A stretch of DNA of 64,000 nucleotides from an uncultured Planctomycetales bacterium. Its GTDB lineage: Bacteria > Planctomycetota > Phycisphaerae > UBA1845 > Fen-1342. Each line of letters begins with the position of its first letter. Positions within the stretch are counted from its first letter, which is position 1. The stretch is from the NCBI GenBank assembly GCA_964553225.1, contig CAZKJT010000002.1, positions 389,908 to 453,907 of the forward strand. Reading direction: 5' to 3'. The notes beneath the pieces are model-generated. The model made no database searches. It was given only the letters and a program-made list of their open reading frames with translations, and was not told the DNA's origin. The position numbers and the translations under genes are program-made. Below, piece after piece: positions 5,988 through 64,000 of this stretch.

Positions 5988-6905
5988 ATGCGACTTCGTC
6001 TCATCTTCGGTAGCGCGCTAGCTGTCGGCGTCATCCTGCTGATGGCGCTGGACGCATGGCTTTCGGCCGGGCATCAGGGCGAATGGCTTCGCACCGGGCT
6101 GGTCTGCACGGGGCTGGTGTTGGCGCTCACCGGGCTGGCGGTGCGCGAACTGCTGCGATTCGCCGTTCAGACCGGGCACCGCCCGCTGCGGTTCGAGTCC
6201 TATTTTTTTGCGTACGGCCTGGTTCTGGGTCCGTACGTCTCGTTCAACGTGAGCGAGGCCGCGGCGCTTCACGACGAGTCGTGGGGCATGGCGTGGATGG
6301 CGATCGCGCTGGGCGCGGCGTTCCTGGCGCAGGCGATGCGGCGGGGAGTGGACCGCGTACTGGTAAACCTCGCCACAACGCTGTTCATCGTGTTCTACGC
6401 GGGCGGCCTGTTCGGATTCATGACCAAGCTGCGCATGGAGATCGGCGGTCCGCTGGGCGCCGTGCTGCTGGTGTTCAGCATGTTCGTCGTGAAGATGACC
6501 GATGTCGGCGCGTATTTTGTCGGCACGTGGATCGGCCGGCACAAGGCTGTGCCCTGGCTCAGTCCGAGCAAGAGCTGGGAAGGGTTCGCGGGCGGCGTCC
6601 TGGTCGCGATGGGGTCGGCGGTGGGAATTGGCGCGGCGCTGAAAGCGGCCGGCTGGCTCGAGGGCGCTCCGGACGCGCTGATCGGTCCGGTCGGACTGCT
6701 CGCGTTCGGTTTCACGATGTCTCTGTTCTCGATCGCCGGAGATCTGGCCGAGTCGTTGCTGAAGCGCGACGTGGCGCGAAAAGACAGCGGCAACGCCATT
6801 CCGGGAATGGGCGGTTTCCTCGACGTCGTGGACTCGGCGATGCTGTCTGCGCCGGCGGCGTGGTTCTTCTGGACACGCGTGCCGGCTCTGGTGGGCGCGA
6901 CCTGA
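5988..6905 (+). CDS. cdsA: phosphatidate cytidylyltransferase
   Basis: Polytopic membrane protein ending in the CTP_transf_1 signature (SLFSIAGDLAESLLKRDVARKDSGNAIPGMGGFLD). The uppS-cdsA order is conserved in many bacteria. Confidence 0.85.
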   Translation: MRLRLIFGSALAVGVILLMALDAWLSAGHQGEWLRTGLVCTGLVLALTGLAVRELLRFAVQTGHRPLRFESYFFAYGLVLGPYVSFNVSEAAALHDESWGMAWMAIALGAAFLAQAMRRGVDRVLVNLATTLFIVFYAGGLFGFMTKLRMEIGGPLGAVLLVFSMFVVKMTDVGAYFVGTWIGRHKAVPWLSPSKSWEGFAGGVLVAMGSAVGIGAALKAAGWLEGAPDALIGPVGLLAFGFTMSLFSIAGDLAESLLKRDVARKDSGNAIPGMGGFLDVVDSAMLSAPAAWFFWTRVPALVGAT

Positions 6906-6918
6906 GCGAGACGGGCCC

Positions 6919-7026
6919 GGTCGCGACTCGGTTTCGGGAACGCCGCGACCGTCAGGGAACGTGGTCTGCCCAGGACGCTACCAACTCCGATTCCCCGCTC
7001 CCTGACGGTCGCGGCTCGGTTCCGGA
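6919..7026. repeat. GC-rich intergenic inverted/direct repeat element (copy A of a dispersed family)
   Basis: gccgcgaccgtcagggaacg (6942-6961) is the reverse complement of tccctgacggtcgcggc within the core ccccgctccctgacggtcgcggctcgg (6993-7019). There is also a direct repeat ggtcgcgactcggtttcgg / ggtcgcggctcggttccgg. Lies between the convergent cdsA and LysR genes. Confidence 0.7.
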
Positions 7027-7055
7027 TGCGCAGCGTCTTCAATAGAGGCACAACA

Positions 7056-7970
7056 CTAGGCTTTGCCGCGCGCCCGAAACAGGCTCTGCCGAGCGGCATT
7101 CGTGATCGCCACGACCGCGGGGTGACGGAGCTTTCGCTCGATGGAGATGGCGTAGAACTGCTCGCGCACCGCGTCGGTCCGCCCAAGCACGCGGCAACCG
7201 TGGGCACGCCGCACGTCGCCTTCTATCACCCGCGGCGCGGCGAACACGCCCAAGCCGGTCTGCCCGAACACCTTCAGCAGGGCGCTGTCCTGGAATTCGC
7301 CGCAGATTCGCGGCCGCACGCCGACGGATTCGAACCAGCGCTCGACGTCGCGACGCAGCACGGCGTCGCGAGTCGGCAGCAGCAGCGGAGCGCCGTCGAG
7401 GCATGCCGGAAACCGGCGAGGCAGGCGTCGCGCCAGCTCCGGCGGCGCGAAGAACGACACGCCGCACTCGCCCAGAAGATGATTAAAGGCCCGCACCCGG
7501 ATGTGCGGATCGATCGGGGCATCGGACAGCACCACGTCCAGCTCGTTCAGCGACAGCCGCGCGAGCAGATCGTTCGGCGACGCCTCGACGCAGACGAGCT
7601 GGATCGCCTCAGGGAGTTCGAGCGCGGGCGCGATCAGGCGGTGTGCGATCAGCTTCGGCAACGCGTCGGCGACGCCCACCACGAGCCGGACCGCGCCGCG
7701 AGCGGGCCGCCCGCTCAGCGAATCGAGCAGTTCGCGGCCGAGGGTGAAGATCTCGTCGGCATAGCGCAGGGTCTGGCGCCCGGCTTCGGTAAGCGCCAGC
7801 CGCCGCCCGGCCTTCTCGAACAGGCGTATACCGAGGCGGCGCTCGAGCTGGCGGACCTGGGCGGAGACGGTCGGCTGCGCCAGGCGCAGCCGCTGCGCCG
7901 CCGGCGCGACGCCGCCCGACCGGGCGACCATCCAGAAGTACAGCAGATGGTGGTAATTCAGCCATTCCAT
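7056..7970 (-). CDS. LysR-family transcriptional regulator
   Basis: N-terminal HTH YHHLLYFWMVARSGGVAPAAQRLRLAQPTVSAQVRQLERRLGIRLF plus a roughly 200-aa LysR substrate-binding region. Divergent from the hpf-like gene across an AT-rich spacer. Confidence 0.85.
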   Translation of the reverse strand: MEWLNYHHLLYFWMVARSGGVAPAAQRLRLAQPTVSAQVRQLERRLGIRLFEKAGRRLALTEAGRQTLRYADEIFTLGRELLDSLSGRPARGAVRLVVGVADALPKLIAHRLIAPALELPEAIQLVCVEASPNDLLARLSLNELDVVLSDAPIDPHIRVRAFNHLLGECGVSFFAPPELARRLPRRFPACLDGAPLLLPTRDAVLRRDVERWFESVGVRPRICGEFQDSALLKVFGQTGLGVFAAPRVIEGDVRRAHGCRVLGRTDAVREQFYAISIERKLRHPAVVAITNAARQSLFRARGKA

Positions 7971-15146: not shown

Positions 15147-15916
15147 CCGGGTCGAACGGCGACGGGCGAAATGCGACGTTTCGCGTGCTGACTTACAACA
15201 TTCACCGCGCGATCGGTTTGGATCGACGGTTCCTGCCGGACCGAGTGGCGGAGGTGCTGCGGCACCACGACGCCGACGTCGTGCTTCTTCAGGAAGTGGA
15301 TCGCGGCGCGCCGCGTTCGCAGCAGCTCGATCTGGCGTCGCACCTGGCGCGTCAGCTTGAGTATCGCTATCGCGCCGTCGGCATGAACGTCTATCTGCGC
15401 AAGGGCCGCTACGGCAACGCCACCCTGACGCGCTTCCCCATCGGGCGACAGCGGAACATCGACCTCTCAGTCCGGTGGATGATCCGTCGCGGCGCGCAGC
15501 ACACACGCATCCATGTCCCGTTCGACGGCCGATCCGTGGACGTGGACGTGTTCAACATGCACCTGGGCTTGTCGGCTCGCGAGCGAGAAAAGCAGGCTTG
15601 CCGGCTGCTGCAAAGTCCGGACGTGGCGCACTTGTCGGACCATTGCCGCAGCGTCATCGCCGGCGACACCAACGACTGGCGCGGGCTACTGACGCGGCGC
15701 TGGTTCGAGCCGGCCGGTTGGAGCTGCGCGACGGTGGACGCCGCGCGACGCCGCGCAATCCGCACGTTTCCGAGCTTCGCCCCGGCCGGCGCGCTGGATC
15801 GCATTTACTTCCGCGGCCGGCTCCGCCTCCTCTCGGTCCACCGCAGCCGATTGAGCGTCGCGCGCGTCGCCAGCGACCACCTTCCGGTCGTCGCGGAATT
15901 TGAGATTCTGCCTTGA
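15143..15916 (+). CDS. endonuclease/exonuclease/phosphatase (EEP) family protein
   Basis: FRVLTYNIHRAIG...DADVVLLQEVD...VIAGDTNDW...SDHLPVVAEF is an EEP-fold signature. The GTG start overlaps the upstream stop (GTGA), indicating translational coupling. Confidence 0.8.
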   Translation: MTGSNGDGRNATFRVLTYNIHRAIGLDRRFLPDRVAEVLRHHDADVVLLQEVDRGAPRSQQLDLASHLARQLEYRYRAVGMNVYLRKGRYGNATLTRFPIGRQRNIDLSVRWMIRRGAQHTRIHVPFDGRSVDVDVFNMHLGLSAREREKQACRLLQSPDVAHLSDHCRSVIAGDTNDWRGLLTRRWFEPAGWSCATVDAARRRAIRTFPSFAPAGALDRIYFRGRLRLLSVHRSRLSVARVASDHLPVVAEFEILP

Positions 15917-16001
15917 GGCGCCGCGAGAGCGGCTCGGAGGCGCTGGTGACGATCGGCCGGCGGCTTCGGGGACGCGCGCGATCGCGAGCGGGTTTACGCA
16001 G

Positions 16002-16071
16002 TCCCCGCTCCCTCACGGTCGCGGCTCGGAAAGGCGCGGCTCGGAAAGGCGCGGCTCGGACGGGCGCGGCA
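16002..16071. repeat. intergenic repeat element copy B plus 3 tandem 17-mers (gcggctcggaaaggcgc)
   Basis: tccccgctccctcacggtcgcggctcgg is 27/28 identical to copy A. It is followed by 3 tandem 17-nt units, with a degenerate unit upstream near 15930. Confidence 0.7.
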
Positions 16072-42327: not shown

Positions 42328-45012
42328 CTACGCCACCGCCGGATCGGCCGCGTCGGGGTTGATGCCGAGCTGCTTCATCGCGGCCGGCAGCTTGGCGCGC
42401 TCGAACTGGTTCTTCTTGGACAACTCCCACAGCGCCGAGTACGCCACGTTCTCCGCATCGATCTCGAAGTGCCGGCGGAGCGCCTCGCGCGTGTCGCTGC
42501 GGCCGAAGCCGTCGGTGCCGAGCGCGTAGAGGCCGGCCGGAGTCCACGGGGCGACGCGGCTGGGCAGCGTCTTCACGTAGTCCGAGACGGCGACGATCGG
42601 CCAGGGCTCGTCCTTGAGCGCCTGGGCGACGTGCGGCAGGCGCGGCTTCTGGTCGGGGTGCAGCTTGTTCCAGCGGCTGCACGAGAGCGCGTCGCGATAG
42701 AGCTCGGTGTAGCTGGTGACGCTCCAGACGTCGGCCGCGACGGCGAACTGCTCGCGCAGGAGGTCCTGCGCGCGGAGGGCTTCGTTCAGCAGCGGACCGC
42801 TGCCGAACAGGTGCACGCGCGGCAGCTTGCCGGGGTTTTCCGCCGCGCGGAACTTGTAGAGTCCGCGGAGGATGCCCTCCTCGGCGCCGTCGATGAGCGC
42901 GGGCTGTGAATATTGTTCGTTGTAGGCCGTGATGTAGTACAGCACGTCTTCCTGGTTCTCGTACATGCGGCGGATGCCGTCGCGGATGATGACCGCGAGC
43001 TCGCAGGCGAACGCCGGGTCGTACGAGATGCAGTTCGGAACGGTGCTCGACAGGATGTGGCTGTGCCCGTCCTGGTGCTGGAGACCCTCGCCGTTCAGCG
43101 TCGTGCGCCCGGCCGTCGCGCCGACCAGGAAGCCCTTGCAGCGCATGTCGCCGGCCAGCCAGATCAGGTCGCCGATGCGCTGGAATCCGAACATCGAATA
43201 GAACGTGAAGAAGGGGATCGTGTTCAGCCCGTGCGATGCGTAGGCCGTGCCGGCGGCGATGAACGAAGACATCGAGCCGGCCTCGGTGATGCCTTCTTCG
43301 AGAAGCTGCCCATTCTGGCGCTCCTCATACTTCATGAGCAGGTGCGCGTCGACCGGCTCGTACTTCTGGCCGGCGTGGGCGTAAATGCCGTAGGTGCTGA
43401 ACAGCGCCTCCATGCCGAACGTGCGGGCCTCGTCGGGAACGATCGGAACGATCAGCTTGCCGAGGTCTTTCTCTTTCATCAGCCGGCCGAGCATGCGCAT
43501 GTAGGCCATCGTGGTCGAAGCCTTGCGATCGCCGCTGCCGGAGAGGAACTCCTTGAACACCTCGCGGTCGGGAGCGCGCAGCGGCTGGGCTCGTACGATG
43601 CGGCGCGGGACCGGTCCGCCGAGGGCGGCCCGCCGCGCGAGAAGGTAGTCGTGCTCCTCGCTGCCGGCTTCGAACCGGCAGAAGGGCGCGTTCTTGATGT
43701 CCTTGTCGCTCACCGGAATGTCGAAGCGGTCGCGGAAGCTCTTCAGCTCCTCCTCGTTGAGCTTCTTCTGCTGGTGCGTGATGTTGCGGCCTTCGCCGGC
43801 CTCGCCCAGGCCGTAGCCCTTGATGGTGCGGGCCAGAATGACCGTCGGTCGGCCCTTCGTGTCCAGCGCGGCCCGATAGGCGGCATGCACCTTGACCGGA
43901 TCGTGACCGCCCAGGCGCAACGACTGAATCTGTTCGTCGGAATATCCGCGCACCAGCTCTGCGACGACGGGATCCTGACCGAAGAAGTGCTCGCGCGCGT
44001 AAGCGCCCGGCTCGACGGAGTAGCGCTGCCACATGCCGTCCACGGTGTTGTTCATGATTGCCATCAGGCGGCCGTCTTCGTCGGCGTCGAACAGCGGGTC
44101 CCAGTCGGAACCGAAGATGACCTTCAGCACGTTCCAGCCGGCCCCGCGGAACGCCGCTTCGAGCTCCTGGATCACGCTGCCGTTGCCCCGGACGGGGCCG
44201 TCGAGGCGCTGCAGGTTGCAGTTGACCACCCAGGTCAGGTTGTCGAGCCGCTCGCGCGCCGCCAGCGTGATGGCGCCGAGGCTCTCTGGCTCGTCCATCT
44301 CGCCGTCGCCCAGGAAGGCCCAAACGCGCGAGCCGGTCGTGTCGGACAGGCCGCGGTCGAGAAGATATTCGTTGAAGCGGGCCTGGTAGATCGACGTGAT
44401 CGGGCCGAGACCCATCGAGACGGTGGGGAACTGCCAGAACTTCGGCATGAGCCAGGGGTGCGGATAGCTCGACAGACCGCCGCCGTTGGCGAGTTCGCGG
44501 CGGAAGTTCATCAGGTGCGATTCGTCGATTCGGCCTTCGAGATAGGCACGGGCGTAGATGCCGGGCGAAGCGTGTCCCTGGAAGTAGATGTGATCGCCGG
44601 CGCGCTGCTCGTCGCCGCCGCGGAAGAAGTGGTTGAACGCCACCTCGTACAGCGTTGCGGCCGAGGCATAGGTCGAGATGTGCCCCCCGATGCCGTCGCT
44701 GGCCTTGTTGGCGCGAACGACCATCGCCATGGCGTTCCAGCGGGCGAAGCTCTTGATGCGCCGCTCGATCCGTCGGTCGCCCGGATAGGCCGGCTGCTCG
44801 CTGTGATGAATCGTGTTGCGATAGGGCGTGTTGGCGCTGACCGGAACGTCGACGTAGTGCCGCTGGGCCCAGTCGCGCAGCCGGTCCAGGAGGAATTCCG
44901 CCCGCGGGCGGCCCGATGTTCGTACCACCGAATCGATGGATTCAATCCACTCGTAAGTTTCGAGAACATCGAGGTCGTTGAGATCCAGGTTGTCGTCGTT
45001 GTGTCGAAGCAT
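42328..45012 (-). CDS. aceE: pyruvate dehydrogenase E1 component (homodimeric type)
   Basis: About 890 aa with the N-terminal ...ETYEWIESIDSV..., ThDP-binding GDGEMDEPESLGA, and ...YITAYNE... conserved blocks of AceE. Start set at MLRHNDDNLD (ATG 45012). Confidence 0.95.
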   Translation of the reverse strand: MLRHNDDNLDLNDLDVLETYEWIESIDSVVRTSGRPRAEFLLDRLRDWAQRHYVDVPVSANTPYRNTIHHSEQPAYPGDRRIERRIKSFARWNAMAMVVRANKASDGIGGHISTYASAATLYEVAFNHFFRGGDEQRAGDHIYFQGHASPGIYARAYLEGRIDESHLMNFRRELANGGGLSSYPHPWLMPKFWQFPTVSMGLGPITSIYQARFNEYLLDRGLSDTTGSRVWAFLGDGEMDEPESLGAITLAARERLDNLTWVVNCNLQRLDGPVRGNGSVIQELEAAFRGAGWNVLKVIFGSDWDPLFDADEDGRLMAIMNNTVDGMWQRYSVEPGAYAREHFFGQDPVVAELVRGYSDEQIQSLRLGGHDPVKVHAAYRAALDTKGRPTVILARTIKGYGLGEAGEGRNITHQQKKLNEEELKSFRDRFDIPVSDKDIKNAPFCRFEAGSEEHDYLLARRAALGGPVPRRIVRAQPLRAPDREVFKEFLSGSGDRKASTTMAYMRMLGRLMKEKDLGKLIVPIVPDEARTFGMEALFSTYGIYAHAGQKYEPVDAHLLMKYEERQNGQLLEEGITEAGSMSSFIAAGTAYASHGLNTIPFFTFYSMFGFQRIGDLIWLAGDMRCKGFLVGATAGRTTLNGEGLQHQDGHSHILSSTVPNCISYDPAFACELAVIIRDGIRRMYENQEDVLYYITAYNEQYSQPALIDGAEEGILRGLYKFRAAENPGKLPRVHLFGSGPLLNEALRAQDLLREQFAVAADVWSVTSYTELYRDALSCSRWNKLHPDQKPRLPHVAQALKDEPWPIVAVSDYVKTLPSRVAPWTPAGLYALGTDGFGRSDTREALRRHFEIDAENVAYSALWELSKKNQFERAKLPAAMKQLGINPDAADPAVA

Positions 45013-45181
45013 TCCGTTCAGTGCGCTCCTGCGCCGGGAGAGAGCGATCCGGGTCGGGGGCGATCCGCTGTGACCGCACTGGGATCGCTGGATCGAGGCG
45101 GGTTGCGTTTCCGCGACCCCGGCAGTAATATACCGGACTTTGCAGATTTGCCAAACGGGACCGGCAGCGCGAGGAGCACGC

Positions 45182-45496
45182 GTGTACGCGATCATCGAAG
45201 ACGGCGGAAGGCAGTACAAGGTCAGCGAAGGCGACGCACTGCTCGTCGATGTCCGGGAGATGCCCGAAGGCGCGACTGAAGTCGTCTTCGATCAGGTCCT
45301 GATGCTTGGCGAAGGGGAATCGGCCCGGATCGGCGCCCCGACCGTCGCCGGCGCGCGCGTCATCGCTCGCCTCGAAGAGTCCCTCAAGATGCCCAAGGTC
45401 GTTGGAATCCTGTTTCGCCGGCGCAAGGGCTTAAAGAAGAAGTTCGGCCACCGTCAGCCGATGATGAAGGTCCGCATCGAGAAGATCGTGGCCTGA
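45182..45496 (+). CDS. rplU: 50S ribosomal protein L21
   Basis: VYAIIEDGGRQYKVSEGD...GHRQPMMKVRIEKI matches L21 throughout. GTG start. No rpmA (L27) follows. Confidence 0.9.
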   Translation: MYAIIEDGGRQYKVSEGDALLVDVREMPEGATEVVFDQVLMLGEGESARIGAPTVAGARVIARLEESLKMPKVVGILFRRRKGLKKKFGHRQPMMKVRIEKIVA

Positions 45497-59831: not shown

Positions 59832-59912
59832 GGACCGCTCACCCCGTCGCACCGGCGGCCCTTTGGTGTCGCGCCGGCGCTCTCGGCCGAGCCGCGACCG
59901 TCAGGAGCGGTC
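59832..59912. repeat. intergenic inverted-repeat element copy C (reverse orientation)
   Basis: The reverse complement of 59886-59912 is ggaccgctcctgacggtcgcggctcgg, matching the core of copies A and B. The partner arm ggaccgctcaccccgtcgc at 59832-59850 gives an imperfect hairpin. Lies between convergent genes. Confidence 0.65.
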
Positions 59913-61782: not shown

Positions 61783-63162
61783 TCAGCAGATGCCGTTGTA
61801 CTCATGCGGGTCTACGTTGTAGACGGTCTGATCCAGCGCCGTGAAGTCGGGATCGGCTTCCATGCGCAGGTTTCGGCCTGCGTCCTGAAAGTCAACATCA
61901 TCCGGCGGACACCAGGCCAAGTACATATTGTACTTTCCGAGCGACGCCGAGTCATCCTGTTCAAAATCCCGGTCATCATAAAAGACAATGTTCACATAAC
62001 CTGCGGAATCGCCCGTCACTGTGGGAATGAACTGGTCATGCTCCGCGTCGTTAGGATCGTCGTTGTTCACCCGAATTCGTGCGCTGCTGTACCAGTTGCC
62101 ACCCAGGCGGTCCAGGGTGCGCAGGTAGACATCGACGTCGCTGCTCCCCGATCCGCCGGCGGACACCGTGTCGTAATAGACGAGGTACATGCGCGCAGAA
62201 TCGGTCGGATCGATTGCGAGCTGCGGCACCATCTTTCCGACGACGCTGCCCGGCAAGACGTCGTCCGAACCCGAGAAGACGGTGCGATGCACGGGAATGC
62301 GCAACGGCATGGGAACGACGGGCCCGTCCGGTTGGTCCGCTTCGATGGCGCCGGTTGCCTGCATCCAGCGCACGCCGACATCCGAGGGGTCGCACGGATC
62401 GTAGTTGTTGGGGTCGAGCGGGTCGATATCAGCCCCCTCGTACAATAAGACGTTCTCGCCATTCGCGTCGAAGCACGTCAGATAGACCTTGCCAGTGTCA
62501 TGCACCGTGATCTGCGCGCCGAATGGTCCGCCCACCTGCGCCTTCGGATCGTCGCCAACGTACACGTTGTCGAATGCCCAGTGGGCGCCGCCATCAATGC
62601 TGCGCAAATACACGTACGATCCGCCCAGCATCGCCTGGGCAACGACATAGAACTCCTGTCGCTGCCCGGACATTTCGCCCGACACAATCCATGGCTTGTC
62701 CATTGCAGGAATGATCGGGTTGCCCGCCGCAATCGTGCTCCACGCGCTGAATGCACCATAGCCGTTTGGAGCGTTCGGATCCGGCGTAAAGCGGCTTGCG
62801 AGCAGTTCATGCCCGGTACGTGCAACAACAACGAATTCTCCGGTCACGGCGTTGAACGCGATGCACGGATCGTGCGCACTGCTCTCGCTCGCGTCCACTT
62901 CGCCTGTCGCGGTCCACTCCTGCAGGGCGAAATCGTACATCGTGAACTGCACGCCGACGCCTGAGGCATAGTAGGCACAAATCGCGTAATCACTGCCGGC
63001 GGCGATGGCCGGCTCCCAGATCTGCCCGTTCGCCGTCGGCCCGTAGGCTGCGACCGCGCGGGCATCGAGTTGCGGCGTCCGTGCGTTCGCCGTCCCCGCC
63101 ATCAGAATTCCCACGAAGAGCAGCGCATTCGCAGCAGTCCTGCTCCGACGCAGGATCGTCAT
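61783..63162 (-). CDS. secreted BNR/sialidase-like (six-bladed propeller) protein
   Basis: Signal peptide MTILRRSRTAANALLFVGILMAGTANA. Asp-box SIDGGAHW and a sialidase-like propeller composition. The upstream 760 nt of the track ORF is non-coding repeat sequence. Confidence 0.65.
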   Translation of the reverse strand: MTILRRSRTAANALLFVGILMAGTANARTPQLDARAVAAYGPTANGQIWEPAIAAGSDYAICAYYASGVGVQFTMYDFALQEWTATGEVDASESSAHDPCIAFNAVTGEFVVVARTGHELLASRFTPDPNAPNGYGAFSAWSTIAAGNPIIPAMDKPWIVSGEMSGQRQEFYVVAQAMLGGSYVYLRSIDGGAHWAFDNVYVGDDPKAQVGGPFGAQITVHDTGKVYLTCFDANGENVLLYEGADIDPLDPNNYDPCDPSDVGVRWMQATGAIEADQPDGPVVPMPLRIPVHRTVFSGSDDVLPGSVVGKMVPQLAIDPTDSARMYLVYYDTVSAGGSGSSDVDVYLRTLDRLGGNWYSSARIRVNNDDPNDAEHDQFIPTVTGDSAGYVNIVFYDDRDFEQDDSASLGKYNMYLAWCPPDDVDFQDAGRNLRMEADPDFTALDQTVYNVDPHEYNGIC

Positions 63163-63410
63163 CACGATGGCGGGACGCGTGCCGGCGAGAGCTCCGTCGG
63201 TCTGCATGCCCAGCGCGAGCCGCAGTCGGATGCCGCGCCATCGCGCTCCTGCGAACCAGCTCGGCCAGCGTGTGCCAACCGCTTCGCCCGACAGGCCGCA
63301 GACGCCGCCACTCCGCAGTCTACCCCGCGCGAAAGGGTTGGCCGCAAGCAAATTCGCTTTCGGCGAGCGAACGTCCGCCGCCGGAGGTTTCCAACTGGCA
63401 AACGGTTCGG

Positions 63411-63480
63411 CCGGAAATCTCACGCCCGACGCGCGGGCGCTGGTGCGCGAAATCGCTCTCGCCTCGCGGGCGCTGGTGCG
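63411..63480. repeat. 2 x 33-nt tandem direct repeat
   Basis: cgcgggcgctggtgcgcgaaatcgc.. repeated with a 33-nt period (cgcgggcgctggtgcgcgaattcgc second copy). Confidence 0.7.
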
Positions 63481-63631
63481 CGAATTCGCCCGCGCCTGCG
63501 CACTTTCGTGCAGCGACCCGCGCCGATCGGGGAATTTCACGAACGCTGAGACGAGCGCCGCGGGAGAGTGTGCGCGTGCAGACTTGCCGAGTGAGCGTGT
63601 GAGAGCGGGTGTGCGCGCAGTTCTGTCGCGC

Positions 63632-63694
63632 GAGAGAGAGAGAGAGAGAGAGAGTGAGTGAGTGAGAGAGAGAGAGAGAGTGAGTGTGTGTGTG
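63632..63694. repeat. compound microsatellite (GA)12-(GAGT)3-(GA)9-(GAGT)1-(GT)5
   Basis: Direct reading of gagagagagagagagagagagagagtgagtgagtgagagagagagagagagtgagtgtgtgtgtg. A homopurine/homopyrimidine mirror repeat that could form H-DNA. Confidence 0.9.
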
Positions 63695-64000
63695 GCGAAA
63701 GCGACCCGTGCGAACGCATGCCGAGTCCTCCAGAACCGCCCGGGAAACGCTGCGGCAGGCATATCTGGACCGCTGGGGCCACGGGGCACCCCGCCAGCTC
63801 TCCACAAGGCCAACCGGACGGCCGCCCGCTGCTCCGGTGCGGCCGGCGCTCGCTCCCCGCCGTCAATCTGAAGTGGATTCGCAGCAATCCGCGTGCCGAG
63901 CGCAGCCGACCGATGGAGTGGCATGCGCTGGCTGTAGCCGGCGTGAGCATGCTTCCGCCTGGGGGCAAGGAAGGCACGCCACCCGCCGCGGACAAGTGCC

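What the first reader, a model, noticed from the sequence alone, without database searches (positions are those of the whole stretch)
6919..7026. Dispersed family of GC-rich intergenic repeat elements with shared core CCGCTCC(C)TSACGGTCGCGGCTCGG, three copies in the window.
Copies at 6993-7019 (+), 16002-16029 (+) and 59886-59912 (-) share 24 to 27 of 28 nt. Copies A and C each carry an inverted partner arm about 35 to 50 nt away that forms an imperfect hairpin, and both sit between convergent genes. Copy B is followed by 3 tandem 17-mers built on the same gcggctcgg submotif. This resembles REP/BIME-type elements (terminator or mRNA-stability hairpins) but with a lineage-specific sequence. It could also be a transcription-factor or RNA-binding site.
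Basis: seen in the sequence. Interest (0 to 1): 0.55.

Follow-up and report, generated by a model that had tools for sequence, protein, structure and literature searches.

The report
REP-like hairpin repeats, class 3 type
The three GC-rich repeats are real copies of a published 25-base hairpin repeat that sits next to "class 3" HuH-Y1 transposase genes in Legionella, Solibacter and planctomycetes, so this is an ordinary new occurrence of a known but little-studied kind of small mobile DNA.

Summary
There are two exact copies and one copy with a 1-nt deletion of CCGCTCCCTSACGGTCGCGGCTCGG (0 expected by chance). Copy A also has a decayed inverted partner. All copies are intergenic.

The repeat is not lineage-specific. 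The flanks of those copies are unrelated.

Read on the other strand, the unit is CCGAG + CCGC-GA-CC-GTNA-GG-GA-GCGG: a 5' foot followed by a small mismatched hairpin. Supplementary Table S1 of Quentin et al. 2018 (PMC6006769) lists this sequence and fold as the "atypical" REP-like structure with foot CnGA. It flanks class 3 TnpA_Y1 genes and has about 600 copies in Solibacter usitatus.

- compensatory changes keep the stem;
- 88% of copies are intergenic, close to stop codons;
- there is no strand bias;
- 67% of copies lie in mostly inverted clusters;
- there is no target-site duplication.

No class 3 gene lies in the window or in any fetched locus, so mobilisation by that enzyme is inferred from the literature. 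Copy C's claimed partner arm is not above background. Copy B's tandem units are 15-mers, not 17-mers.

The parts
6995..7019 (-). Copy A. An intact type-1 unit; read foot-first on the - strand it is CCGAGCCGCGACCGTCAGGGAGCGG.
   Evidence: Exact pattern match. Covariance model 44.4 bits, E = 3e-7.
6938..6962 (+). Copy A'. A decayed inverted partner of A. Its foot (GAACG instead of CCGAG) and the base of its stem are degenerate.
   Evidence: Sequence. Covariance model 19.1 bits, E = 0.06 over 6942-6962. 17-bp perfect inverted repeat with A.
6934..7026 (.). The A'/A doublet. The feet face outward, the spacer is 32 nt, and the two units form a long imperfect hairpin between convergent genes (a CTP_transf_1 family gene and a LysR regulator).
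   Evidence: ssDNA fold -31.1 and -32.1 kcal/mol, z = -4.7 and -4.5. RNA fold z = -2.2. Flanking genes. The 32-nt spacer is typical for feet-out pairs, whose median is 30 nt.
16005..16029 (-). Copy B. An intact type-1 unit with loop GTGA, lying between co-directional genes (Exo_endo_phos, then an amidohydrolase).
   Evidence: Exact match. Covariance model 44.0 bits. Genes.
16030..16070 (-). Tandem partial units: the foot plus 5' stem arm (CCGAGCCGCGCC) and a 3-nt spacer, repeated directly upstream of B's foot.
   Evidence: Tandem Repeats Finder: period 15, 3.4 copies, 94% matches, 16020-16070. The same kind of partial array occurs at 18 other copies in other taxa.
15973..15992 (+). Possible very decayed type-2 partner of B (CGCGCGCGATCGCGAGCGG). 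Weak evidence.
   Evidence: Local alignment score 21 to the type-2 consensus, reached by 3% of background windows. Not reported by the covariance model at E <= 10.
59887..59910 (+). Copy C. A type-1 unit with a 1-nt deletion in the 3' arm (GG-AGCGG). It is a singleton between convergent genes (an unknown protein and an FG-GAP repeat protein).
   Evidence: Covariance model 31.1 bits, E = 2e-4. Genes. No credible partner.

Best explanation
The copies belong to the REP-like hairpin family described next to class 3 HuH-Y1 (TnpA_Y1) transposase genes by Quentin et al. 2018.

Shown here:
- The functional unit is a sharply bounded 25-mer, 5'-CCGAG-CCGC-GA-CC-GTNA-GG-GA-GCGG-3'. It consists of a single-stranded foot (CnGA), a 4-bp stem, a 2x2 G.A/A.G internal loop, a 2-bp stem and a 4-nt loop.
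- It is flanked by 2-3 A/T-rich bases upstream of the foot.
- It is scattered in intergenic DNA, singly or as inverted doublets.

Inferred by analogy with TnpA_REP/REP and IS200/IS605:
- On transiently single-stranded DNA, the hairpin plus foot is bound by a class 3 Y1 enzyme encoded elsewhere in the genome.
- The enzyme cleaves near the foot and rejoins the strand, which copies or moves units or doublets without producing target-site duplications.
- Copies survive only where they do no harm, mainly just after stop codons.
- Any effect on transcript 3' ends would be secondary.

Copy A/A' is an ageing doublet, B is an intact unit with slipped partial repeats, and C is a damaged singleton.
For: 1. 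Identity with the published family. Table S1 of PMC6006769 lists CCGAGCCGCGACCGTAAGGGAGCGGA with fold .....((((..((....))..)))). beside class 3 genes of L. pneumophila, and CAGAGCCGCGACCGTYAGGGAGCG beside those of S. usitatus. The text gives the foot as CnGA, about 600 copies in S. usitatus, and a distribution in Planctomycetes, Acidobacteria and Proteobacteria.
2. The same taxa dominate the genome scan.
3. The unit is sharply bounded and its flanks are unrelated.
4. The hairpin is kept by compensatory change. 92% of cells pair; 31 cells have changes on both sides, against 6.8 in shuffles; pair 12-19 is C-G in 97 sequences and G-C in 23.
5. 105 of 120 classifiable copies are intergenic, against 12.7% intergenic DNA in the same loci. 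The median distance to a stop codon is 33-42 nt. Convergent spacers are enriched and divergent ones depleted.
6. Annotated Legionella adelaidensis and Thiodictyon records show copies in the same kind of place, after gene ends.
7. No strand bias relative to transcription.
8. 240 of 360 copies have a neighbour within 200 nt: 117 inverted pairs against 28 direct. Type-2 units pair only with type-1, like the Y/Z heterodimers of E. coli BIMEs.
9. No target-site duplication of 3 nt or more in 115 doublets.
Against: - No class 3 (or any HuH-Y1) ORF was found in the window or in the 166 fetched loci (Pfam of 10 window proteins). The link to the enzyme rests on the paper alone.
- No biochemical data exist for class 3 enzymes.
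- The single hairpin is thermodynamically weak (-5.1 kcal/mol as DNA, z = -0.8).
- Near-identity across phyla is unlike classical, vertically inherited REPIN/RAYT pairs.
- Some phylum labels come from MAG binning and may be wrong.
Confidence: 0.8

Rival explanations
1. The units are host-selected RNA hairpins at transcript 3' ends, acting as terminators or mRNA-stabilising structures like some E. coli REPs, and that function is why they are kept.
For: Copies sit a median of 33-42 nt after stop codons, and convergent spacers are enriched. The A'/A doublet forms a strong hairpin on either strand.
Against: There is no significant orientation bias relative to transcription (24 vs 36). No T tract or terminator-like call coincides with any copy. 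The single unit folds weakly. A structural role would not hold the same 25-nt sequence, including the unpaired foot, constant across phyla. This may be a secondary effect rather than the origin.
Confidence: 0.1
2. The units are double-stranded binding sites for a conserved DNA-binding protein, such as a nucleoid-associated protein or a regulator.
For: The core is palindromic and the location is intergenic.
Against: The conserved asymmetric foot CCGAG and the conserved mismatches are not expected of a dimer site. Substitutions are compensatory for pairing rather than conserving half-site sequence. Only 14 of 105 intergenic copies are in divergent (promoter-rich) spacers, against 28 expected by length. 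Neighbouring genes are unrelated.
Confidence: 0.05
3. The units are solo ends or miniature derivatives (MITEs) of a DDE-type insertion sequence.
For: Inverted doublets superficially resemble terminal inverted repeats.
Against: There is no target-site duplication of 3 nt or more in any of 115 doublets. Both feet-out and feet-in arrangements occur, and so do singletons. The internal hairpin is kept by covariation. No transposase gene recurs nearby.
Confidence: 0.03

Closest known systems
REP-like hairpins flanking class 3 TnpA_Y1 (HuH-Y1) genes (Quentin et al. 2018, BMC Genomics 19:475, Additional file 2 Table S1)
   Same: Same sequence (CCGAGCCGCGACCGTNAGGGAGCGG), same fold (.....((((..((....))..))))), same foot (CnGA), high copy number, and same host phyla (searches compared).
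   Different: No class 3 gene is visible in this 64-kb window.
E. coli REP/BIME with TnpA_REP (RAYT), and Pseudomonas REPINs
   Same: A short extragenic hairpin with an unpaired 5' foot and a stem mismatch. Inverted doublets made of two unit variants. Location after genes. A single-copy Y1 enzyme in trans (PMC3333891, PMC8266576, PMC3337134).
   Different: The foot is CCGAG, not GT[AG]G. The hairpin is much shorter and weaker. The enzyme class differs (class 3, Y-motif Y----Q). The sequence is nearly identical across phyla, whereas classical REPs differ even between related species.
Subterminal hairpins of IS200/IS605 insertion sequences
   Same: Imperfect ssDNA hairpins with a 5' guide tetranucleotide, recognised by HuH-Y1 transposases, with no target-site duplication (PMC8266576).
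   Different: Here the hairpins are dispersed on their own and do not border a transposase gene at each copy.
CGTC-tagged REPs (Di Nocera et al. 2013, BMC Genomics 14:522)
   Same: Small tagged hairpins, mostly in inverted dimers, found in several phyla.
   Different: Different tag and stem. CGTC repeats have no known dedicated transposase.

Membership tests
Class 3 TnpA_Y1-associated REP-like hairpins | 5' foot CnGA followed by a weak hairpin: 4 bp, 2x2 internal loop, 2 bp, 4-nt loop | tested here: met
   Window units read CCGAG-CCGC-GA-CC-GT(C/G)A-GG-GA-GCGG, the same as the Table S1 entries apart from the loop base.
Class 3 TnpA_Y1-associated REP-like hairpins | The hairpin is under selection, shown by pairing kept through substitutions | tested here: met
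   129 distinct variants: 92% of cells paired, 4 of 6 pairs with changes on both sides, and 0 of 500 shuffles reach the observed covariation score. Caveat: variants were collected by similarity to two consensus sequences.
Class 3 TnpA_Y1-associated REP-like hairpins | Many dispersed copies with unrelated flanks | tested here: met
   139 exact cores in 120 loci with random flanks. Three intact or near-intact copies (one with a 1-nt deletion) plus one decayed in this 64 kb.
Class 3 TnpA_Y1-associated REP-like hairpins | Hosts are mainly Planctomycetes, Acidobacteria and Proteobacteria | tested here: met
   The hit list is dominated by Bryobacterales/Solibacter, Planctomycetota, and Legionella and other Gammaproteobacteria. 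The window itself is probably planctomycete: one protein is 63% identical to a Phycisphaerae MAG locus, which is an inference.
Class 3 TnpA_Y1-associated REP-like hairpins | A class 3 HuH-Y1 gene (NHVH ... YV[VI]xEQ, about 178 aa) in the same genome, itself flanked by units | not testable with these tools
   None in the window or in 166 loci by motif scan and Pfam.
Class 3 TnpA_Y1-associated REP-like hairpins | The enzyme binds and cleaves the ssDNA hairpin | not testable with these tools
   Needs biochemistry. The 2018 paper itself says experiments are still required.
Canonical REP/RAYT (class 2 TnpA_REP) | 5' GT[AG]G tetranucleotide at the foot of the hairpin | tested here: not met
   The foot is CCGAG in more than 90% of copies.
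Canonical REP/RAYT (class 2 TnpA_REP) | Extragenic location and BIME/REPIN-like inverted doublets | tested here: met
   88% intergenic. 117 inverted pairs against 28 direct.
Intrinsic (Rho-independent) terminator | GC-rich hairpin immediately followed by a T/U tract, oriented with the gene | tested here: not met
   No terminator-like call overlaps A, B or C. No significant orientation bias.
MITE of a DDE transposon | Terminal inverted repeats flanked by a target-site duplication | tested here: not met
   0 of 72 feet-out and 0 of 43 feet-in doublets have identical 3-nt direct flanks.
Any Rfam RNA family | Match to a curated covariance model | tested here: not met
   At gathering thresholds the whole window gives only the tRNA. 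At E <= 10, a scan of the copy A region (6850-7100) gives only chance hits; the B and C regions were not scanned at that threshold.

The most novel reading that the evidence does not exclude
The class 3 system may be a horizontally travelling REP system whose 25-nt hairpin is effectively frozen: the same sequence occurs in Acidobacteriota, Planctomycetota, Legionellales and probably Chloroflexota, Binatota and Armatimonadota. That would contrast with the vertically inherited, fast-diverging REPIN/RAYT pairs. The type-1/type-2 hetero-doublets and the recurrent 'stutter' arrays of foot plus 5' stem arm might be footprints of how the enzyme cuts and rejoins DNA.
Probability: 0.35. Interest if true: 0.55.

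Novelty: new member of a known kind. Interest (0 to 1): 0.3.

Why it matters
For this window, little: the repeats are ordinary copies of a published REP-like family and the genes around them are unremarkable.

For the family, the session shows three things:
- Reach and conservation. A scarcely studied class of HuH-Y1-associated hairpins is far more widespread and more sequence-conserved than its one paragraph in the literature suggests.
- BIME-like organisation. The units form doublets like those of E. coli BIMEs.
- Gene-calling artefacts. The units generate spurious ORFs (TEPRPSGSG, AATVRER, PLPxGRGS) that can contaminate gene calls in soil MAGs.

The family would be a convenient substrate for testing how a third class of Y1 enzymes recognises ssDNA.

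Tried and rejected
- Rfam at gathering thresholds (whole window) and at E <= 10 (copy A region, 6850-7100): nothing relevant.
- Literature search for the DNA string and for the peptide TEPRPSGSG: nothing. The family was found instead through REP/RAYT papers.
- Guilt by association. All-vs-all clustering of 5,857 ORFs from 120 loci found no family recurring next to the units; the largest cluster covers 10 loci.
- Motif scans for HuH...Y ORFs in the window and all loci: none. ORFs lying between unit pairs 350-1500 nt apart are ordinary genes or a nucleotidyltransferase/HEPN pair.
- A metagenome scan with the L. pneumophila gene-flanking variant CCGAGCCGCGACTGTGAGGGAGCGGA, meant to capture a REPtron, returned 15 loci and no class 3 gene.
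- PLSDB BLAST with a synthetic doublet found only decayed doublets in Legionella adelaidensis and a unit in Thiodictyon, with no transposase nearby.
- The look-up of encoding contigs for a window protein: not on record, so the source organism was not identified directly.
- Rejected after testing: CRISPR-like array (no regular spacing), integron attC (no RYYYAAC/GTTRRRY cores), intrinsic terminator, and MITE.
- The partner arm of copy C was rejected as indistinguishable from background.

Full report

Yes, with corrections.
- The pattern CCGCTCCCTSACGGTCGCGGCTCGG matches exactly at 6995-7019 and 16005-16029. No match occurred in 100 dinucleotide-preserving shuffles, even with three mismatches allowed.
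- The third copy (59887-59910/11, opposite strand) is the same unit with one C missing.
- A covariance model built later from 129 family variants scores the three copies at 44.4, 44.0 and 31.1 bits. It also finds one weaker copy, A' (6942-6962, 19.1 bits, E = 0.06). Everything else in the window is noise.
- A' and A form a 17-bp perfect inverted repeat with a 32-nt spacer. The doublet folds far better than shuffles as ssDNA (-31 kcal/mol, z = -4.7) and moderately better as RNA (z = -2.2).
- The partner arm claimed for copy C is not supported. It is a 9-bp inverted repeat whose similarity to the unit is matched by 44% of random windows, and the region folds no better than shuffles.
- The tandem repeats after copy B have a 15-nt period, CGCGGCTCGGAAAGG x 3.4, not 17.

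Gene calls by codon position GC and a codon-usage caller place the copies as follows:
- A'/A between convergent genes: a CTP_transf_1 family gene (+) and a LysR regulator (-).
- B between co-directional genes: Exo_endo_phos, then an amidohydrolase.
- C between convergent genes: an unknown protein (+) and an FG-GAP repeat protein (-).

**2. What is it?**

The decisive result was a scan of one genome per species for the 19-nt core CCTSACGGTCGCGGCTCGG.
- The hits are dominated by Bryobacterales/Solibacter (Acidobacteriota), Phycisphaerae, Planctomycetia and Gemmataceae (Planctomycetota), and Legionella and other Gammaproteobacteria. Some loci have only 40-45% G+C.
- Further hits come from MAGs labelled Anaerolineae/Chloroflexi, Binataceae, Chthonomonadaceae and Chitinophaga. 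These MAG labels may include binning errors.
- Twenty-seven viral-catalogue contigs also carry the core.

So the repeat is not lineage-specific.

Aligning 135 copies in register shows a sharply bounded unit: (A)CCGCTC + core, then two or three A/T-biased bases. Beyond that the flanks carry no information. No protein family recurs next to the copies.

Read on the complementary strand, the unit is 5'-CCGAG-CCGC-GA-CC-GTNA-GG-GA-GCGG-3'. That is an unpaired foot followed by a small hairpin with a tandem G.A/A.G internal loop and a 4-nt loop in which the third base is free.
- As a single DNA hairpin it is weak (-5.1 kcal/mol, z = -0.8).
- It is nevertheless maintained by compensatory change. A second common variant, type 2 (CCGAGCCGCGCGCGTCAGCAAGCGG), swaps C12-G19 for G12-C19. 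Rarer variants swap G8-C23 for A-T, C13-G18 for T-A or A-T, and C6-G25 for G-C.
- Over 129 distinct variants, 92% of cells pair. 31 cells carry changes on both sides, against 6.8 in shuffles. Sliding the partner column destroys the signal.
- Caveat: the variants were collected by similarity to two consensus sequences.

**3. Match to the literature**

Rfam has nothing, and searching papers for the DNA string found nothing. The REP/RAYT literature did.
- Quentin et al. 2018 (PMC6006769) define a small 'class 3' of HuH-Y1 proteins. These are about 178 aa, carry motifs NHVH, W[TA] and YV[VI]xEQ, and have 60.7% mean pairwise identity. They are found mainly in Planctomycetes, Acidobacteria and Proteobacteria.
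- Additional file 2 (Table S1) lists the sequences:
  - CCGAGCCGCGACCGTAAGGGAGCGGA, folded .....((((..((....))..)))). for five L. pneumophila strains;
  - CAGAGCCGCGACCGT(T/C)AGGGAGCG for S. usitatus;
  - a divergent form for Planctomyces limnophilus.

This is the window's unit, with the same fold I had derived independently. The family is therefore already described. The window adds new copies, probably in a planctomycete: one window protein is 63% identical over 877 aa to a Phycisphaerae MAG locus, which is an inference.

**4. How it most likely works**

Shown here, family-wide:
- 105 of 120 classifiable copies are intergenic, against 12.7% intergenic DNA in the same loci.
- Copies lie a median of 33-42 nt from a stop codon.
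- Convergent spacers are enriched (31 observed, 19-25 expected). Divergent spacers are depleted for their length (14 observed, 28 expected).
- In co-directional spacers the unit shows no preference for the transcribed strand (24 vs 36, p = 0.16) (these rest on my own crude gene caller).
- Curated annotation of Legionella adelaidensis and Thiodictyon records shows the same placement after gene ends.
- 240 of 360 copies have a neighbour within 200 nt: 74 feet-out, 43 feet-in and only 28 direct pairs.
- Type-2 units occur in inverted pairs only with type-1 units (65 hetero-pairs, no 2-2 pairs). This recalls the Y/Z heterodimers of E. coli BIMEs.
- None of 115 doublets has a target-site duplication of 3 nt or more.
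- No copy in the window coincides with a terminator-like site.

Inferred, by analogy with TnpA_REP/REP and IS200/IS605 (PMC3333891, PMC8266576):
- A class 3 Y1 enzyme encoded elsewhere binds the foot plus hairpin on single-stranded DNA.
- It cuts near the foot, where the conserved A/T-rich flank is a candidate cleavage or target remnant, and rejoins the strand. This spreads units or doublets without duplications.
- Selection then leaves copies mainly downstream of genes.

The link to the enzyme could not be tested. No HuH-Y ORF exists in the window or in any of the 166 loci fetched, and the collection scans were exhausted.

**5. Rivals**

- *RNA terminator or stabiliser.* The position after genes fits. 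The lack of strand bias, the absence of a T tract, the weak single hairpin and the cross-phylum constancy of the unpaired foot do not. At most this is a secondary effect.
- *Duplex protein-binding site.* Contradicted by the asymmetric foot, the conserved mismatches, pairing-preserving substitutions and depletion from divergent spacers.
- *DDE-type MITE.* Contradicted by the absence of target-site duplications and by the mixed arrangements.

**6. Details that may be new**

- Phyletic spread. The family reaches beyond the three published phyla, with a nearly invariant 25-mer.
- Type 2. A type-2 variant pairs only with type 1.
- Partial arrays. Arrays made of [3-6 nt flank + CCGAGCCGCG(A/C)C(C)] recur immediately upstream of a complete unit. 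There are 19 cases in different taxa, including window copy B. They could come from slippage at the hairpin or from the enzyme's cut-and-rejoin reaction. I could not distinguish these.

**7. Verdict**

It is a new occurrence of a published, poorly characterised kind: class 3 HuH-Y1-associated hairpins. Interest is low to moderate. The window itself holds nothing unusual, but the family's cross-phylum conservation and untested enzymology are worth a specialist's attention.

Noticed in passing
L154:7655-8603 (also L161): A nucleotidyltransferase (MNT-like) and HEPN/DUF86-like gene pair, judged from sequence motifs only, sits inside a dense cluster of the hairpin units in a metagenome contig. The units generate overlapping spurious ORFs (…AATVRER…, …PLPHSRGSDPV…).
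   Followed up: partly
L008:441-1344: Two units lie inside a long ORF that has repeated acyl-carrier-like segments (…DLGIDSIKRVEIL…). The unit may be tolerated in-frame in linker regions of a multidomain synthase. 15 of 154 copies were classed as coding by my crude caller.
   Followed up: no
L083:5034-5170 and L137:4778-5029: The unit is embedded in a longer tandem repeat of 116-117 nt (two and three copies, identical flanks in L083), a different arrangement from the usual doublets.
   Followed up: no
L077, L057, L119, L015 (Gammaproteobacteria MAG contigs, 42-47% G+C): In these low-GC contigs the units carry extra conserved flanks (…catgtgACGCTCCC… and …CTCGGttacaccgag…) and occur as regular inverted doublets 55-105 nt apart, up to five per 8 kb. 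This looks like a locally expanded, longer REPIN-like derivative.
   Followed up: partly
window:42242-42324: A tandem repeat of period 12/36 (CTGCACGGAGTC x 5.7) lies in the spacer just downstream of the stop codon of the 955-aa gene at 42328-45195 (-).
   Followed up: no
window:63420-63697: A 33-nt tandem duplication (63432-63497) is followed by a (GA)n / (GAGT)n microsatellite of about 26 dinucleotide copies (63632-63684), inside or at the edge of the ORF 61783-63999 (-).
   Followed up: no
window:1812-1991: A long run of TCG/GTC triplets (period 3 and 18) on the + strand. It probably encodes an acidic Asp/Glu-rich stretch on the - strand.
   Followed up: no
window:60084-61700: The FG-GAP repeat protein ends with a dockerin-like tail (…DGDGDVDLADLSGLLSQFG…). 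Together with the 63% match of the 42328-45195 protein to a Phycisphaerae MAG, this hints that the window is from a planctomycete.
   Followed up: partly
window:15921-15937: A short remnant, GAGAGCGGCTCGG, containing the unit's GCGGCTCGG end lies 5 nt after the stop codon at 15916 (model score 15.3 bits, E = 0.4). It may be a further decayed fragment upstream of copy B.
   Followed up: partly
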